Shown: piece by piece, positions 155 to 48,599 of the stretch
Numbering within the stretch: position 1 is the first letter of the stretch
How the letters are laid out: each line of letters starts with the position of its first letter
Virus record (IMG/VR): IMGVR_UViG_3300024999_000018
Location: 1-50,113 of that record
Length of the DNA stretch: 50,113 bases
DNA from: a virus
Taxonomy: Duplodnaviria > Caudoviricetes
Reading direction: 5' to 3' (one strand)
The notes under the pieces: model-generated
The model's database searches: none
Told to the model about the DNA's origin: nothing
What the model saw: only the letters and a program-made list of their open reading frames with translations
Made by a program: the position numbers and the translations under genes

Positions 155-3100
155 TTAAAAGGAGGAGGGCAATCCCCTCCTTCCACTTCTCCCCTTCGGT
201 GCCTCCTTATAAACTCCCATGATAACCTCGTAGGGATTCCCACCATTGTAAGCCGTGTTGATAGATTTCATTATCTGATTTGTCATAGGCACTCCGTACG
301 AATAACCTATTGCCTTAGCAATCAACTGAATATTCTTCCTTTTCTCACGAGGTGTGAGCTGATCCCAATCAAGGGATTCTGAGAACTTCATTGCTGCCTC
401 AGGAACAAGTGATGCCCACTCACCCATCACTCCTCCAAGTGAGGATCCGTACTTAGCACTTCCACCGATCATGGGCAACTTCTCCAGGAGTTCTCCGGCC
501 GCGGATGCTACTGCATGAACATCACTACCATCATCATCCTTCACCTTAAGGTACTCACCAATCGGATCAGGGACAACATTCTCATAGCCCATCATCTTGT
601 AGAGTTGCCCAGCTAGGACTGTGGCCACTACATACTTAGTAGCTCTCATCAATGCCTGCTTGTTGGATACGTCGGCATTCTTAATCCCTAGCACATCCCT
701 GATAATAAAATTGAAGTCAGCAATCCCGAATGTCTGCAACAGTGTAAGCCACTTAGTAACCTTCCCCGTCTGTATATCCGAAACTGCCCCCTTAATCCCC
801 ATGCCCTGAGTCTTCTCCACAACATCATCTGCGAAGTGAACCAGATCATCTCCCTTTAACTTGAGTGTATTCTTCCCATAATGGTAGCCGGCATTCCAAC
901 TAGCCTCAGCCACAACTCCATCCACCCACTTCATAGGGGCCATACTCTTATTGCCAAGCCAGTCCTTTGTCCCAGTAGCAAGACCACGCTGAACATAGTC
1001 AGTCCACTCGGAATACGCCAGATCAAATTCTCTGATGGACAACACTGAGGATTTCTGCTTAGCTAAGGATGCCTTCCTACTGAAGGTCCTATCTGCAACC
1101 ATCCTACCTAATCCATAGAAGGTACTCTTCATATCGAGAAGGGTTGGTACTGCAATCACATATGAGGAGGGCTGCACGAATATAGTCCTCAGTGATCCAC
1201 CAATCGTAGCAAGCACTAGATTCTTACTCAATGACTCAAGTCCCTTATGGATCAAAGGATTAGTGTTGGCCATCGCAGTAGCAGTCGGATCCTTACCCAC
1301 AATAGCATCACTCCACTTACTCAGCATTACACTCAGAGCAGGGTTCCACTCACGAAGGGTGACCTTCCCAGTACCTGATGGGCGGGGCAACTTAACATAA
1401 GCTAACTCCTTTGCTAGTGCTGCCACTGGACTAATGTGGATTTCATCTAGACCATAATTAGAATACTTTTCTATGGCCTTGAATGGGTCTAGTTCAATCG
1501 GTATATCTGAAATATCCCTCTTCTTAGCATGAGGATTAAACATTCCATTAAATGTTTTACTCAACTGCCCTAGTTTGGCACTAGTCGAGTTAATCATTCC
1601 CTCTCCAAGTCCCAACTCTCGGAGGACATTCAGATCACGGAAGAGTGGCAAGTAATTCTCACGGCCCTTCATATCCAGTAACTTAGGTATAGCCTTCTGC
1701 CCTGTATGAGTCCTCACGTAATTGGATCTCTCACGGAACTTCCTAGTGTAATTCAACAGTTGCTCTTTCACGAGTTCTTCATGAGGTAGGAGGGAAGGAA
1801 TATCAGTAATCCCCATCTTCTCATACGCCTCCTTAACACTCTTCATATCTGCATAACATGCGATAGCGAAGTCCTTCATTCTCTCAGGAGCTATCTTAGA
1901 CTTGAGCCCATCCAGCCATACCTTAACCTCTGCTTTCTCCGCCTTAGACTCTGCGAGTGAATCTCTCCATGTTCTATAAAGATCCTTAATAGGTCCTCGG
2001 AAAGCATTAATCTTAGTCTCCGTGGCTGTCATAAATCTATCCACCACATTAGTGGTATGCTCCACCATGACCCTTCCAGTCTTCGGATCTGTCCTATCTA
2101 TATCCTTGCCAAAGTTACTCTTCCTATCCATCCCAACTATACCCTCAGCTAGGTCCTTAGGAACTGCTGGCTTGGTCCACACAACCTTCCCATTCCTATC
2201 TTTCTTAATCGTCTGGTGGACAATAGGACCTTCAGGGTCCAGGATCTTAGTCCCCAACTTATCCCCATCCCTAATCTCCTGCTTCATCTGGCCCACGTTA
2301 GCCAAGGAGGCCTTGAACAAGTCTATGGAAGCCTGATCTACACCCATACTAGAGAGATAATCATCCACTGTCTTCCCAACTTTCTTAGCCATCTTCACTA
2401 CATTCTCTATCTGATCTACAGCCACTCTGAGGCCAGTCACATCTACTGACCCCCTCTCATTATTCATTATACTCCACAAATCCCTACCTGCCCCATCTCC
2501 CCTCTCACCATAATCCAAGATCTCATCCCCAAGTCCACCTTCCCTCCCATAGGATTCCTCAAGGTATTCCTTCTCTCCAAGATCCCACATATCGGCCTTA
2601 TCTAGAAGGTCAAGTTCAGGTTCCAGGAAGTACTTGCCAGTGGCAGGATCTCTAATGATCTCCCTATCTGTACCCTTCGCATCTCTGAAGGCCTCAGCAT
2701 CTTCCAACTTGTCGAAGATTGCAAACTTGTCATCGACGAGAGGGAGGGCTTCCTTAGTAATTGGAGTCTTGCCTCCCCCGGAGGCGGGGGTTGCTACGTT
2801 CCGTTTTGTAACATAGGAATCTCTCCACTCTAAGAACTTCTCAGCTGCGGAGGCAGAGTCTACAGTTCTAGACTTAGGGACTTCAGGTGAAAGGGATTCC
2901 TTAGCAACCTTAACCTCAGCCACCACTTCCTCACCCAACCTAATCTCTTCCAGATTAACTCCCTGAGTAATCTCCTCCAGTACTTTCCAATCCTCTGCAG
3001 TCACCCCATCAGAGTACAACTCATCTATCTCGGACCCACTCTCAGCCTTCTTCCTAGCTTCTTCCTCCTTAGCCAATTCATAAACTCTGCGAGCCTCCCC

Positions 3101-48570: not shown

Positions 48571-48599
48571 TCCCTACATTACATAATGTAACATAGAAG
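48571..48599. repeat. 29-bp palindromic motif copy 17
   Basis: tccctacattaca-taa-tgtaacatagaag. Confidence 0.85.

What the first reader, a model, noticed from the sequence alone, without database searches (positions are those of the whole stretch)
2791..48599. Genome-wide lattice of 17 copies of a 29-bp quasi-palindrome
Seen: copies start at 2791, 8776, 12859, 18526, 20125, 22907, 26602, 29725, 29776, 30705, 32154, 34075, 36932, 41152, 41447, 45236 and 48571. Consensus is TTSCTAYRTTACA-WWW-TGTAACATAGSAA (13-bp arms, invariant 3-bp A/T spacer). They occur in both arms, mostly squeezed into short intergenic gaps, and around the circle no gap exceeds about 6 kb. The arms vary independently and create non-GU mismatches, which fits a dimeric protein reading dsDNA better than an RNA hairpin. 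Most copies are not at promoters. Inference: a genome-scale system such as clamp loading, genome organisation/protection or transcription road-blocking. Alternatives are module-exchange sites, or a host regulator site (the core also fits the GlnR/TnrA box TGTNA-N7-TNACA). From memory, cluster O mycobacteriophages carry a dispersed 7-3-7 palindrome; that precedent should be verified.
Basis: partly seen in the sequence, partly recalled or inferred. Interest (0 to 1): 0.88.

Follow-up and report, generated by a model that had tools for sequence, protein, structure and literature searches.

The report
Phage-wide palindrome lattice for ParB-methylase
A 50-kb phage genome carries 17 fairly evenly spread copies of a 29-base palindrome that most likely is the docking site of the phage's own ParB-like DNA methylase, which would give a job to a common but unexplained class of phage proteins.

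Summary
Exactly 17 copies of TTSCTAYRTTACA-WWW-TGTAAYRTAGSAA lie at the stated coordinates, far beyond chance.

The window is a complete lytic-looking phage genome with two divergent gene arms. Fifteen copies sit in minimal gaps between genes, and two are inside genes in frame.

Pairing across the arms is no better than in shuffles, and two copies lie in the spacer between consensus sigma-70 promoters. An RNA hairpin is therefore unlikely.

Relatives keep the same 10-3-10 architecture but with lineage-specific half-sites: 36 of 48 long loci by a strict scan, more by relaxed scans.

Motif divergence tracks the helix-turn-helix segment of a ParB_N-HTH-N6/N4 methyltransferase fusion (partial Mantel rho -0.46, P=0.0002). 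It does not track that protein's other domains or a rival HTH protein.

Best reading (about 0.55): the copies are parS-like sites for a dimeric ParB-methylase. Loading and sliding from these sites is inferred, not shown.

The motif is not a host operator (6 single hits in 185,579 genomes).

The closest precedent is the Cluster O mycobacteriophage 17-bp repeat, whose function is unknown and whose phages also encode a ParB-like protein.

The parts
2791..2819 (.). motif copy 1, inside the 1662-aa SLT-domain virion protein ORF (155-5143, minus strand), read in the only stop-free frame of the motif
   Evidence: The same place in the ORF holds a copy in G001 (22742) and G002 (13090).
8776..8804 (.). 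motif copy 2, in the 48-bp gap between genes 8812-9234 and 7687-8763 (both minus strand)
12859..12887 (.). motif copy 3. It follows the major capsid gene and a GC-rich hairpin. Its AGGAA end lies 5 nt before the next ATG (12853).
18526..18554 (.). motif copy 4, between the TerL and portal genes; its AGGAA end lies 5 nt before the portal ATG
   Evidence: A copy also sits directly upstream of the portal gene in G001, G002 and the Desulfofustis phage.
20125..20153 (.). motif copy 5, at the left edge of a 6.4-kb module that is not shared with G001
22907..22935 (.). motif copy 6; its core is perfectly palindromic
26602..26630 (.). motif copy 7, at the right edge of the 6.4-kb module that is not shared with G001
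29725..29753 (.). motif copy 8, in the 373-bp spacer between the divergent consensus promoters
29776..29804 (.). motif copy 9, in the same promoter spacer, starting 51 bp after copy 8
30705..30733 (.). motif copy 10, after the first rightward genes
32154..32182 (.). motif copy 11
34075..34103 (.). motif copy 12, inside ORF 33918-34490 (plus strand), where it encodes IATLQNVTKQ. Its T24-to-A change removes the TAG that the consensus would place in this frame.
36932..36960 (.). motif copy 13, after the ATP-dependent ligase gene
41152..41180 (.). motif copy 14, left flank of the Tad2-like gene cassette
41447..41475 (.). motif copy 15, right flank of the Tad2-like cassette and upstream of the RHH-like gene
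45236..45264 (.). motif copy 16
48571..48599 (.). motif copy 17, between the PolA region and the primase gene
42262..43611 (+). gene for the ParB_N - ParB-type HTH - N6/N4 DNA methyltransferase fusion, the proposed reader of the motif. The ORF is open from a GTG at 42217.
   Evidence: Domains: Pfam ParB_N and N6_N4_Mtase; alignment to Noc over residues 17-234; GGRR and ENLxR invariant in alignment A3. Co-variation of the HTH with motif type. Predicted homodimer.
29528..29556 (-). leftward sigma-70-type promoter match (TTGACA-17-TACAAT with TG) at the head of the structural arm
   Evidence: a consensus match only
29930..29958 (+). rightward sigma-70-type promoter match (TTGACA-17-TATAAT, 12 of 12) at the head of the early arm
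   Evidence: a consensus match only
41554..41802 (+). RHH-like 82-aa protein, a weaker rival reader of the motif
   Evidence: for the sequence (the RHH label is my reading of it; no family hit); for the partial rho of -0.24, P=0.02, on 17 taxa

Best explanation
The 17 palindromes are the cognate double-stranded DNA sites of the phage's own ParB_N-HTH-methyltransferase fusion (42262-43611).

Two copies of the protein, held together through their methylase domains, would place their two ParB-type helix-turn-helix units on the two 13-bp arms. The A/T spacer and the pyrimidine-purine step in each arm would be read by DNA shape.

By analogy with ParB/parS and KorB/OB, the site would act as a loading point. 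Nucleotide-dependent closure of the ParB_N domains would let the dimer leave the site and travel along the DNA. A lattice of sites every few kilobases would then give the methylase, or a regulatory clamp, access to the whole genome.

Shown here by computation: the lattice itself, its conservation, its lineage-specific half-sites, the co-variation with the HTH segment, the intact ParB_N motifs, and the predicted dimer.

Inferred only: binding, nucleotide dependence, sliding, and what is methylated.
For: 1. Real, selected DNA element.
- 17 copies against about 3 expected half-site matches.
- Nearly all copies are syntenic in G001, which is about 80% identical. Several are syntenic in G002, about 68% identical, including the copy inside the 1662-aa ORF.

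2. Family-wide association with the ParB-MTase.
- Every complete genome with a lattice that I examined has a ParB-MTase homologue at 40-98% identity: G000, G001, the Desulfofustis phage, G006 and G007.
- A search with the ParB-MTase alignment confirmed 142 relatives and kept 80 loci.
- 45 of those 80 loci, and 36 of the 48 loci of at least 13 kb, hold 3 or more copies of a 10-3-10 palindrome with an A/T spacer. About 15 different half-sites occur.
- Relaxed scans added 3 more loci with 3 or more copies and 5 with 2 copies.

3. Domain-specific co-variation.
- 34 lineages under 95% identity were compared. Motif distance was correlated with identity in each domain, with the other domains as covariates, using 5000 permutations.
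- HTH (aa 135-185): partial rho -0.46, P=0.0002. ParB_N: 0.00. Linker: -0.09. MTase: +0.09.
- The signal peaks in the 25-aa windows 126-175.
- Example: L246 is 71% identical overall but has a different half-site and changes PANL to PTNV in the predicted recognition helix. G002-type proteins are 60% identical, keep the type-1 motif, and keep PANL.

4. Rival readers do worse.
- The HTH slice of the HTH/TerS-like protein gives partial rho +0.035, P=0.64, on 19 lineages. The ParB HTH on the same lineages gives -0.54, P=0.0003.
- PolA gives 0.00 and the SSB-like protein -0.10.

5. Protein anatomy.
- The protein aligns to Noc over residues 17-234.
- GGRR and ENLxR are invariant in 4 divergent members.

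6. Site resemblance.
- The type-1 core GTTACA-WWW-TGTAAC holds the two blocks GTTNCA and TGNAAC of the parS consensus tGTTNCACGTGNAACa (passage read in PMC3597684).

7. Predicted dimer.
- Homodimer score 0.75 against a best of 3 controls of 0.00.
- The mark was reached by 20 of 30 proteins solved as pairs of one chain and by 1 of 23 solved as single chains. These counts hold only roughly because my own alignment was used.
- The runs agree in at least 76% of contacts, and the partner's pLDDT is at least 76.
- The interface lies in methylase residues 302-367.
- A like methylase structure exists (CcrM, entry 6pbd, 2 chains), so the pass may be from memory.

8. Spacing is more even than uniform random placement.
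- G000: largest gap 5,985 bp, P=0.012. Desulfofustis phage: P=0.006. G006: 20 sites, largest gap 5,508 bp, P=0.009.

9. An independent lineage.
- Cluster O mycobacteriophages have a dispersed 7-3-7 palindrome, TGTTCGGNNNCCGAACA, and a ParB-like protein without ParA (section 8 and passages of PMC4351075).
- Corndog gp90 carries ParB_N and is 25% identical to ours over 146 aa.
Against: - No binding, nucleotide or methylation data exist for any member.
- All 80 loci come from one broad phage family, so every gene is linked to the motif by descent. Other proteins also keep some residual correlation: primase -0.32 (P=0.0005, spread along the whole protein), RHH -0.24 (P=0.02, only 17 taxa), PD-(D/E)XK -0.18.
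- The HTH segment may simply be a better clock for fast change.
- 4 of the 48 long loci with an intact HTH showed no lattice even in relaxed scans: L286, L287, L299, L306.
- Three distant relatives show no lattice. Two of them, Mel-JY34 and MW202489, have a ParB-MTase at about 23% identity.
- Pfam's HTH_ParB model is not reached. The best case is E=0.04 in the Desulfofustis phage homologue.
- The two half-site blocks are 3 bp apart, against 2 bp in parS. The conserved site is 29 bp, far longer than parS.
- Evenness fails in G007 (P=0.36). In the window it is not significant when copies are restricted to gene junctions and the 2791 copy is left out (P=0.36).
- The sense-strand polarity of the variation needs a second assumption, namely selection against an mRNA hairpin.
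Confidence: 0.55

Rival explanations
1. The copies form an operator lattice for a different phage-encoded dimeric or tetrameric regulator, such as the RHH-like protein at 41554-41802 or an unrecognised protein. That regulator would control transcription as a roadblock or a long-range silencer. The ParB-MTase would only be a passenger.
For: - Copies sit just upstream of ribosome-binding sites inside operons.
- Two copies lie between the divergent early promoters.
- The RHH-like gene lies directly downstream of a copy in G000, G001, G002 and G006. It keeps a partial rho of -0.24, P=0.02.
- Cluster O authors also proposed dimeric regulators (PMC4351075 section 8).
Against: - RHH co-variation is weaker than that of the ParB HTH and rests on 17 taxa. 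No RHH homologue was detected in G007.
- Two copies are in the middle of coding frames and are conserved there.
- Most copies are far from any sigma-70-type promoter match.
- The HTH of the HTH/TerS-like protein does not co-vary.
Confidence: 0.2
2. The motif is a phage-specific promoter or other directional transcription signal, read by an unrecognised phage RNA polymerase or by a factor that redirects the host enzyme. The parallel would be the roughly 17 conserved promoters of T7-type phages (recalled).
For: - It is the only repeated motif in the genome once the copies are masked.
- Strong sigma-70 consensus promoters occur only in the early region, so middle and late genes need some signal.
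- Variation is polar with respect to gene direction.
- The lineage-specific diversification resembles that of polymerase-promoter pairs (recalled).
Against: - No RNA polymerase or sigma factor was found by PHROGs, Pfam or a PDB sequence search.
- The one large unknown protein (961 aa) is absent from G001.
- The site is palindromic.
- In type-3 lineages the polarity comes from the 3' arm merging with the Shine-Dalgarno sequence.
- Two copies lie in mid-gene.
- The CATAG end is not kept in the GATC-type lineages.
Confidence: 0.07
3. The copies act as RNA or single-stranded DNA hairpins: processing sites, 3'-end stabilisers, translational operators, or template-strand hairpins.
For: - The 13-bp arms can fold, with energies of -1.8 to -12.5 kcal/mol.
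- The antisense strand has fewer mismatches than the sense strand in 48 of 77 oriented copies, equal numbers in 22, and more in 7.
- The 3' arm often carries the Shine-Dalgarno sequence.
Against: - On the 17 sense-oriented copies, 79.6% of cells pair, against 81.6% in shuffles (489 of 500 shuffles are at least as high). The covariation score is below the shuffled mean.
- Changes are not compensated: 11 of 16 copies with A at antisense position 8 are mismatched.
- Pairs 3/27 and 11/19 mismatch on both strands.
- No T run follows the copies.
- Two copies lie outside the predicted transcripts.
- There is no Rfam match.
Confidence: 0.05
4. The primary role is recombination: short conserved linkers at which related phages exchange gene modules.
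For: - The 6.4-kb segment 20173-26601 and the Tad2-like cassette are flanked by copies on both sides and differ between G000 and G001.
- Insertions and deletions flanked by repeats are reported in Cluster O (PMC4351075 section 8).
- The phage encodes its own annealing system, Sak4 and a PD-(D/E)XK nuclease.
Against: - 7 of 40 mosaic edges lie within 50 bp of a copy. About 0.21 of gene junctions carry a copy, so this is near chance.
- A linker needs no palindrome, no A/T spacer, no mid-gene copies, and no co-variation with a protein segment.
Confidence: 0.05
5. The motif is a binding site for a host regulator (GlnR/TnrA-like, MerR family) that the phage borrows or titrates.
For: The 17-bp core fits TGTNA-N7-TNACA. 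That consensus is recalled, not taken from any call.
Against: - The 23-bp pattern gives 6 single hits in 185,579 bacterial and archaeal genomes, in unrelated taxa.
- Conservation extends to 29 bp.
- The half-site differs between related phages.
Confidence: 0.02

Closest known systems
Cluster O mycobacteriophage 17-bp dyad repeat, TGTTCGGNNNCCGAACA (PMC4351075; abstract, section 8 and passages read)
   Same: - A dispersed palindrome with a 7-3-7 core, an A/T-rich 3-bp spacer, and TGTT...AACA ends.
- Dozens of copies in short intergenic gaps and some inside genes.
- Mostly not at promoters, absent from the host genome, and occasional repeat-flanked insertions or deletions.
- The phage has no integrase and no ParA, but does have a ParB-like protein (gp90, ParB_N).
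- One lineage found here (L298) has CTTTGTTCAG-AAT-YCGAACAAAG, nearly the Cluster O core.
   Different: - The phages are unrelated and infect a different kind of host.
- The repeat is 17 bp with invariant arms, against 29 bp with polar variation here.
- Corndog has 34 copies in 70 kb.
- Corndog gp90 has no methylase domain.
- The function there is unknown, and the passages I read propose no link to gp90 beyond listing it among three DNA-binding candidates.
ParB/parS and Noc/NBS CTP-dependent clamps (parS consensus from PMC3597684, passage read)
   Same: - A ParB_N domain with GxxR and ENLxR motifs followed by an HTH.
- A palindromic site whose half-blocks GTTNCA/TGNAAC match the type-1 core.
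- Site specificity that changes with HTH residues.
   Different: - No ParA partner.
- The C-terminal dimerisation domain is replaced by a methylase.
- The blocks are 3 bp apart rather than 2.
- The site is 29 bp long, and there are 17 dispersed copies rather than a cluster near an origin.
- Nucleotide binding and sliding are untested.
KorB/OB of plasmid RK2 (PMC11790492; listing abstract and passages read)
   Same: A ParB-family protein on a mobile genome that binds palindromic sites, forms a CTP-dependent sliding clamp, and reaches distant targets from those sites.
   Different: - KorB is a partition protein and repressor that works with KorA. No KorA-like partner or ParA was found here.
- KorB has no enzyme domain.
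- That RK2 carries 12 dispersed OB sites is recalled; I did not see it in the passages.
Phage ParB-CTPase fold fusions to N6/N4 methyltransferases (PMC12704722, passages read) and ParB-dependent T-dioxygenases (PMC13229309, passages read)
   Same: - The same domain architecture, reported as frequent in phages and of unknown role.
- A precedent for ParB-like proteins that activate DNA-modifying enzymes.
   Different: The passages I read describe no cognate DNA site and no lattice. The supplements of both papers were not opened.
Cluster A mycobacteriophage stoperators (as described in the discussion passage of PMC4351075; the rest recalled)
   Same: Many copies of a repressor site spread through a phage genome, sitting in short intergenic gaps.
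   Different: Stoperators are asymmetric, oriented with transcription, and belong to temperate phages with an immunity repressor. Here the site is palindromic, and no integrase or repressor was found.

Membership tests
ParB-CTPase / parS-type system | ParB N-terminal domain with the GxxRxxA and ENLxR nucleotide-binding motifs | tested here: met
   Pfam ParB_N scores 28.0 bits against a cut-off of 26.3. The protein aligns to Noc over residues 17-234. G68 G69 R70 R71 A74 and E104 N105 R108 are invariant in 4 divergent members.
ParB-CTPase / parS-type system | ParB-type HTH DNA-binding domain after the N-domain | tested here: inconclusive
   The phmmer alignment to Noc runs through the region. 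Pfam HTH_ParB reaches only E=0.04, below its cut-off, in the Desulfofustis phage homologue and gives nothing in the window's protein.
ParB-CTPase / parS-type system | The protein binds a cognate palindromic site through the HTH | tested here: inconclusive
   Support is by co-variation only: partial rho -0.46, P=0.0002, with the other domains near 0.
ParB-CTPase / parS-type system | CTP binding and hydrolysis, N-gate closure, and sliding from the site | not testable with these tools
   Only the sequence motifs are seen. PMC12704722 reports that some methylase fusions bind ATP rather than CTP (passage).
ParB-CTPase / parS-type system | ParA partner and C-terminal dimerisation domain (the partition function) | tested here: not met
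   No ParA-like hit appeared among the window's proteins. The C-terminal half is an N6_N4 methylase. A homodimer through that domain is predicted, with score 0.75 against a best control of 0.00.
Cluster O-type dispersed dyad repeat | 7-3-7 dyad with an A/T-rich spacer, many dispersed copies both between and within genes, absent from host genomes | tested here: met
   compared with PMC4351075 section 8. The sequence itself differs (TGTTACA against TGTTCGG) and the phages are unrelated, so the likeness is one of kind, not of descent.
RNA hairpin element (terminator, processing site or operator) | Base pairing maintained across copies by compensatory change | tested here: not met
   79.6% of cells pair, against 81.6% in shuffles. 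Two pairs show a change on both sides, against 3.1 expected.
Phage RNA-polymerase promoter set (T7 type) | A phage-encoded RNA polymerase and an asymmetric promoter with a fixed start | tested here: not met
   No polymerase was found, and the motif is palindromic. Transcript starts could not be mapped because no RNA holder was listed.
Host GlnR/TnrA-type operator | The same site occurs in front of host genes | tested here: not met
   6 single hits in 185,579 genomes, in scattered taxa. The host itself is unknown, and a looser 17-bp site was not searched.
Cluster A stoperators | An asymmetric site with one orientation relative to transcription, and an immunity repressor in a temperate phage | tested here: not met
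   The site is palindromic. There were no integrase or repressor hits.

The most novel reading that the evidence does not exclude
The ParB-methylase is a nucleotide-gated sliding DNA methyltransferase. It loads at the palindromes, closes around the DNA, and scans outward. The whole phage genome is thereby modified within minutes of entry or replication.

The spacing of the lattice, with largest gaps of about 5.5-8 kb in 3 of 4 lineages tested, would reflect how far a clamp travels.

The many lineage-specific half-sites would keep co-infecting relatives from using each other's enzyme.

The same logic would explain the unexplained Cluster O repeat.
Probability: 0.3. Interest if true: 0.9.

Novelty: new variant of a known kind. 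Interest (0 to 1): 0.8.

Why it matters
ParB-fold fusions to DNA methylases are reported as among the commonest ParB architectures in phages, yet no function is known for them (PMC12704722, passages).

A dispersed dyad repeat in Cluster O mycobacteriophages has been unexplained since 2015 (PMC4351075).

This window, together with about 40 related lineages, links the two. Each lineage has its own palindrome, and the palindrome changes in step with the HTH of the ParB-methylase.

That turns both open questions into direct bench tests: a gel shift, nucleotide binding, and methylome mapping against distance from the sites. It also offers a natural set of orthogonal protein-site pairs.

If sliding is confirmed, this would be a new way for a DNA-modifying enzyme to find its substrate.

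Tried and rejected
- Nearest phage records. Megablast of both halves of the window against 50,697 phage records found no match. tblastn then gave the Desulfofustis phage as the nearest named relative.
- Earlier findings of this scan: nothing for this genome or this sequence.
- RNA evidence: no RNA holder was listed for 26001-36000. The first try was one base too long and was corrected.
- Known RNA families and tRNAs: no Rfam family at the gathering score and no tRNA.
- Hidden RNA polymerase: the 961-aa protein has no PDB sequence match and is not conserved in G001.
- Fold of the 131-aa early protein P0001: AlphaFold2 gave pLDDT 75, with no Foldseek match at E of 0.001 or better.
- Fold of the HTH/TerS-like protein P0004: pLDDT was only 58. 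The only matches were local ones to LuxR/GerE-type HTHs and a weak one to entry 2ao9. Its HTH does not co-vary with the motif.
- Sigma-70 reading of the arms. Each arm resembles TGnTAYRTT, but the sense-driving arm is no better a match than the other. I dropped this reading.
- A second repeated motif. None remains in the window after masking. The one in the Desulfofustis phage is a coding tandem repeat.
- Outer-arm pattern scan of viral contigs.
- Methylation data for the Desulfofustis phage: not found in the passages of PMC9296519.
- The paper describing that phage (PMC10370329) does not mention the motif in the passages found.
- Literature searches for a lattice of ParB sites in lytic phages returned no paper describing one.

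
Full report

All 17 stated starts carry a 29-mer that fits TTSCTAYRTTACA-WWW-TGTAAYRTAGSAA. The half-site TGTAACATAG with up to one mismatch occurs 29 times, against 3.1 expected, and none of 100 shuffles reaches 29.

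A symmetric weight matrix scores the 17 copies 35.5-46.4. The next position scores 16.4 and is a shifted overlap of the 41152 copy. Everything else scores below -6, so there are exactly 17 copies.

The three spacer columns are A or T in every copy.

The window is a complete virus record with direct terminal repeats. On the circle the largest gap is 5,985 bp.

**2. The genome.**

Genes run leftward from about 29.5 kb:
- an HTH/TerS-like protein;
- a variable module;
- TerL (18560-20113);
- an SU10-type portal;
- the major capsid protein;
- a 1662-aa virion protein with an SLT domain.

Genes run rightward from about 30.0 kb:
- small early genes;
- an ATP-dependent ligase;
- a gp5.9-like RecBCD inhibitor;
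- a PD-(D/E)XK nuclease and Sak4;
- a Tad2-like protein;
- a ParB_N-methylase fusion;
- a DnaQ-like exonuclease, PolA and a primase.

No integrase, repressor, ParA, sigma factor or RNA polymerase was detected in the same calls.

Sigma-70 consensus matches of 11 or 12 out of 12 occur only at 29556 (minus strand), 29930, 31273, 34990 and 48425 (plus strand). Early transcription therefore probably uses the host enzyme. These are consensus matches, not measured promoters.

**3. Where the copies sit.**

Fifteen copies fill otherwise minimal gaps between co-directional genes. They lie 0-72 nt after the upstream stop in most cases and 5-22 nt before the next start.

Where the next ATG is only 5-9 nt away, the AGGAA or AGGAG end of the motif is the only Shine-Dalgarno-like sequence present. 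This explains the unpaired S at position 27.

Copies 29725 and 29776 lie in the 373-bp spacer between the divergent consensus promoters. They are upstream of both promoters and so outside both predicted transcripts.

Two copies are coding:
- 2791 is read in the one stop-free frame of the motif. It is kept at the same place in the homologous ORF of G001 and G002.
- 34075 encodes IATLQNVTKQ in a protein that is 87% identical in G001. Its T24-to-A change removes the TAG that the consensus would place in that frame.

**4. RNA or DNA?**

On the 17 copies in sense orientation, 79.6% of cells form a standard pair, against 81.6% after shuffling partners (489 of 500 shuffles are at least as high). The covariation score is below the shuffled mean. 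Pairs 3/27 and 11/19 mismatch on both strands.

Variation at positions 7/8 and 22/23 is always pyrimidine-purine, and in the window it consists of transitions only. In the relatives most copies were retrieved with a pattern that already fixed Y and R, so that part is not independent evidence.

The variation is polar. In 77 copies with a clear gene direction, the sense strand carries the C.A mismatches and the antisense strand the G.T pairs. The antisense strand has fewer mismatches in 48 copies, equal numbers in 22, and more in 7.

There is no compensation. When the antisense strand has A at position 8, its partner is C in 11 of 16 copies.

In type-3 relatives the same bias appears, by hand count in 10 against 4 copies. 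There the 3' arm merges with the Shine-Dalgarno sequence, as in CAAAGGAG.

I read the polarity as a double-stranded protein site under side selection to keep the mRNA hairpin weak next to the ribosome-binding site. This is inference.

**5. Relatives.**

The exact 23-bp pattern occurs in 72 stretches of roughly 35 viral contigs. In 185,579 bacterial and archaeal genomes it occurs only 6 times, each a single copy, in unrelated taxa.

G001 is about 80% identical and 98% complete. It has 15 copies, nearly all syntenic with the window's. G002 is about 68% identical and keeps copies before the portal gene, after the capsid gene, before the primase gene, before the RHH-like gene, and inside the giant ORF.

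The nearest named phage is Desulfofustis phage LS06-2018-MD01, with TerL 49% identical at the protein level. It has 9-10 copies of TTGCTATGTCCCA-AWT-TGGGACATAGCAA. The outer arms are the same and the inner bases change symmetrically. The paper on that phage does not mention the motif in the passages found.

Two complete genomes carry CTATGTTCAA-WWW-TTGAACATAG: G006 with 20 copies and G007 with 14.

Three more distant relatives showed no lattice: Mel-JY34, MW202489 and Kuura.

**6. Who reads the site?**

All five complete lattice genomes encode the ParB_N-HTH-methylase.

Searching viral contigs with an alignment of that protein confirmed 142 relatives and kept 80 loci. An automatic scan for palindromes with 10-bp arms, a 3-bp spacer and at least 8 of 10 matches found 3 or more copies in 45 of the 80 loci, and in 36 of the 48 loci of at least 13 kb.

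The half-sites differ by lineage. Examples are CTTTGGTGAA, CTATGGGGAT, CTTGGGTAAA, GATCGTTTAA, GTTAATTAAA, GATCCATTAA, CTACCGCAAT and CTTTGTTCAG.

For the 12 long loci the automatic scan left out, relaxed scans gave:
- 3 or more copies in L253, L254 and L276; L276 uses a 4-bp spacer;
- 2 copies in L250, L265, L267, L277 and L295;
- nothing convincing in L286, L287, L299 and L306.

For the co-variation test I kept 34 lineages under 95% identity, out of 45 with a defined motif. The 11 dropped rows were near-duplicates.

The Hamming distance between consensus half-sites correlates with identity in the HTH segment (aa 135-185) at rho -0.67. For the other three segments rho is -0.43 to -0.48.

With the other segments as covariates and 5000 label permutations, the partial correlations are:
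- HTH: -0.46, P=0.0002;
- ParB_N: 0.00;
- linker: -0.09;
- methylase: +0.09.

In 25-aa windows the signal sits at residues 126-175.

Neighbouring genes served as controls, with ParB_N and the methylase as covariates:

| Protein | Partial rho | P | Note |
|---|---|---|---|
| PolA | 0.00 | not significant | |
| SSB-like | -0.10 | not significant | |
| PD-(D/E)XK nuclease | -0.18 | 0.017 | |
| RHH-like | -0.24 | 0.02 | 17 taxa only |
| Primase | -0.32 | 0.0005 | diffuse along the protein |

So some clonal signal remains in other genes. The HTH is the strongest and the only localised one.

The main rival HTH protein (28883-29485) is present in 18 of 18 records that are at least 90% complete. Its HTH slice gives partial rho +0.035 (P=0.64) on 19 lineages. 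On the same lineages the ParB HTH gives -0.54 (P=0.0003). For example, its TPQTVSN helix occurs with TTACA, GGAAAA and GATC-type motifs alike.

**7. The protein.**

The N-terminal 234 residues align to nucleoid occlusion protein Noc, a ParB paralogue. GGRR and ENLxR are invariant in four members that are 42-59% identical.

The segment SQADTSRLLKESPANLTRDLKLA lines up with the ParB-family HTH (the helix assignment is mine).

The C-terminal half is a beta-class N6/N4 methylase with DPPY and FxGxG motifs. Its best PDB match is CcrM.

A homodimer is supported by the model:
- score 0.75, against a best of 3 controls of 0.00;
- the mark was reached by 20 of 30 proteins solved as pairs of one chain and by 1 of 23 solved as single chains, counts that hold only roughly because my own alignment was used;
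- the runs agree in at least 76% of contacts, and the partner's pLDDT is at least 76.

The interface is in methylase residues 302-367. A like methylase structure has been solved, so the pass may be from memory.

If the prediction is right, the methylase takes the place of the ParB C-terminal dimerisation domain, and a dimer fits a palindrome.

**8. Spacing.**

Against uniform random placement on a circle, the largest gap is small in most genomes tested:

| Genome | Copies | Largest gap (bp) | P (largest gap at most as observed) |
|---|---|---|---|
| G000 (the window) | 17 | 5,985 | 0.012 |
| G001 (syntenic, not independent) | 15 | 6,072 | 0.006 |
| Desulfofustis phage | 9 | 7,786 | 0.006 |
| G006 | 20 | 5,508 | 0.009 |
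| G007 | 14 | 9,237 | 0.36 |

In the window the effect depends on the mid-gene copy. With copies restricted to gene junctions and 2791 left out, P is 0.36.

I take evenness as moderately supported. The conserved mid-gene copy in a 5-kb gene is the best single hint of a spacing need.

**9. How it most likely works.**

Shown by computation:
- a selected double-stranded palindrome lattice;
- lineage-specific half-sites that change with the HTH of the ParB-methylase;
- intact ParB_N motifs;
- a predicted dimer.

Inferred:
- the dimer binds the site;
- nucleotide binding closes the N-domains;
- the clamp leaves the site and slides;
- the methylase, or a regulatory activity, thereby reaches the whole genome.

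A narrower reading is that the site merely targets or regulates the enzyme locally.

The methylase domain does not co-vary with the motif. Its target is therefore probably not the variable part of the site.

**10. Comparison with what is known, and novelty.**

The Cluster O mycobacteriophage repeat is the closest kind. It is a 7-3-7 dyad with an A/T spacer, 34 copies in Corndog, and unknown function. Its authors judged a transcriptional role unlikely (PMC4351075 section 8). Those phages also have a ParB-like protein without ParA (passages; ParB_N confirmed; 25% identity to ours over 146 aa).

ParB/parS and KorB/OB supply the mechanism by analogy.

ParB-methylase fusions are reported as frequent in phages and unexplained (PMC12704722). 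ParB-like activators of phage DNA dioxygenases are known (PMC13229309).

My searches and the passages read found no description of a cognate site lattice for such fusions. Supplements of those papers were not opened.

I class the finding as a new variant of a known kind.

**11. Limits.**

- No experiment and no RNA data are available.
- The host is unknown.
- Gene calls are my own ORF choices.
- Orientation calls for the relatives use a codon model trained on the window.
- The co-variation test uses pairwise distances with permutation, not a tree-based method.
- All lineages belong to one phage family.

Noticed in passing
window 29528-29556 (-), 29930-29958 (+), 31273-31301 (+), 34990-35017 (+), 48425-48453 (+): Sigma-70 consensus matches of 11 or 12 out of 12 are confined to these five places. 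Elsewhere the matches are no more numerous than in shuffles. This suggests host-polymerase early units and an unknown signal for the remaining genes.
   Followed up: partly
window 35243-35638 (+): A 131-aa protein sits about 220 nt behind a perfect consensus promoter. It is 98-99% identical in G001 and G004, although the DNA is only about 86% identical. Homologues occur in G005, G006, G007 and the Desulfofustis phage. It has no family hit, and its AlphaFold2 model (pLDDT 75) has no PDB match.
   Followed up: partly
window 41152-41475: A Tad2-like (Thoeris anti-defence) gene at 41196-41441 is flanked by two motif copies. G001 and G004 have a single copy and no such gene there, so the arrangement looks like a cassette gained or lost between repeats.
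   Followed up: partly
window 20173-26601: A 6.4-kb block of genes, including a 961-aa protein with no known relatives, is bounded exactly by motif copies. In G001 a 2.2-kb block lies between the corresponding copies instead.
   Followed up: partly
window 12888-12931: A GC-rich hairpin (GGAGGGGTCTGAGTGGCCCCTCC on the coding strand) follows the major capsid gene and directly precedes a motif copy. It is conserved in G001 and in several contigs, and looks like a terminator or stabiliser for the capsid message.
   Followed up: no
window 35165-35181: The sequence GCAGGTTCGAATCCTGT resembles a tRNA T-arm. It lies in the long leader before 35243. ARAGORN finds no tRNA and Rfam finds nothing.
   Followed up: partly
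L298 (viral contig locus): This lineage's palindrome, CTTTGTTCAG-AAT-YCGAACAAAG, is nearly the Cluster O mycobacteriophage core TGTTCGG-NNN-CCGAACA, although the phages are unrelated.
   Followed up: no
L276 (viral contig locus): This lineage uses a 4-bp AATT spacer (10-4-10) rather than 3 bp, in 5 copies. The half-site geometry is therefore not fixed across the family.
   Followed up: no
L092 31160-32320 (Desulfofustis phage): About ten tandem copies of a 42-54-bp unit containing TATGATTTAAGATTA lie inside the gene annotated 'capsid protein'. This is a coding repeat, unrelated to the palindrome.
   Followed up: no
window 37818-38000 (+): A 60-aa homologue of the T7 gp5.9 RecBCD inhibitor sits next to the phage's own nuclease and annealing genes.
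   Followed up: no
window 28883-29485 (-): This HTH protein with a LuxR/GerE-type motif is the first gene of the structural arm. It is present in 18 of 18 near-complete relatives searched, but lies next to TerL only in the Desulfofustis phage. Whether it is a small terminase or a regulator is open.
   Followed up: partly
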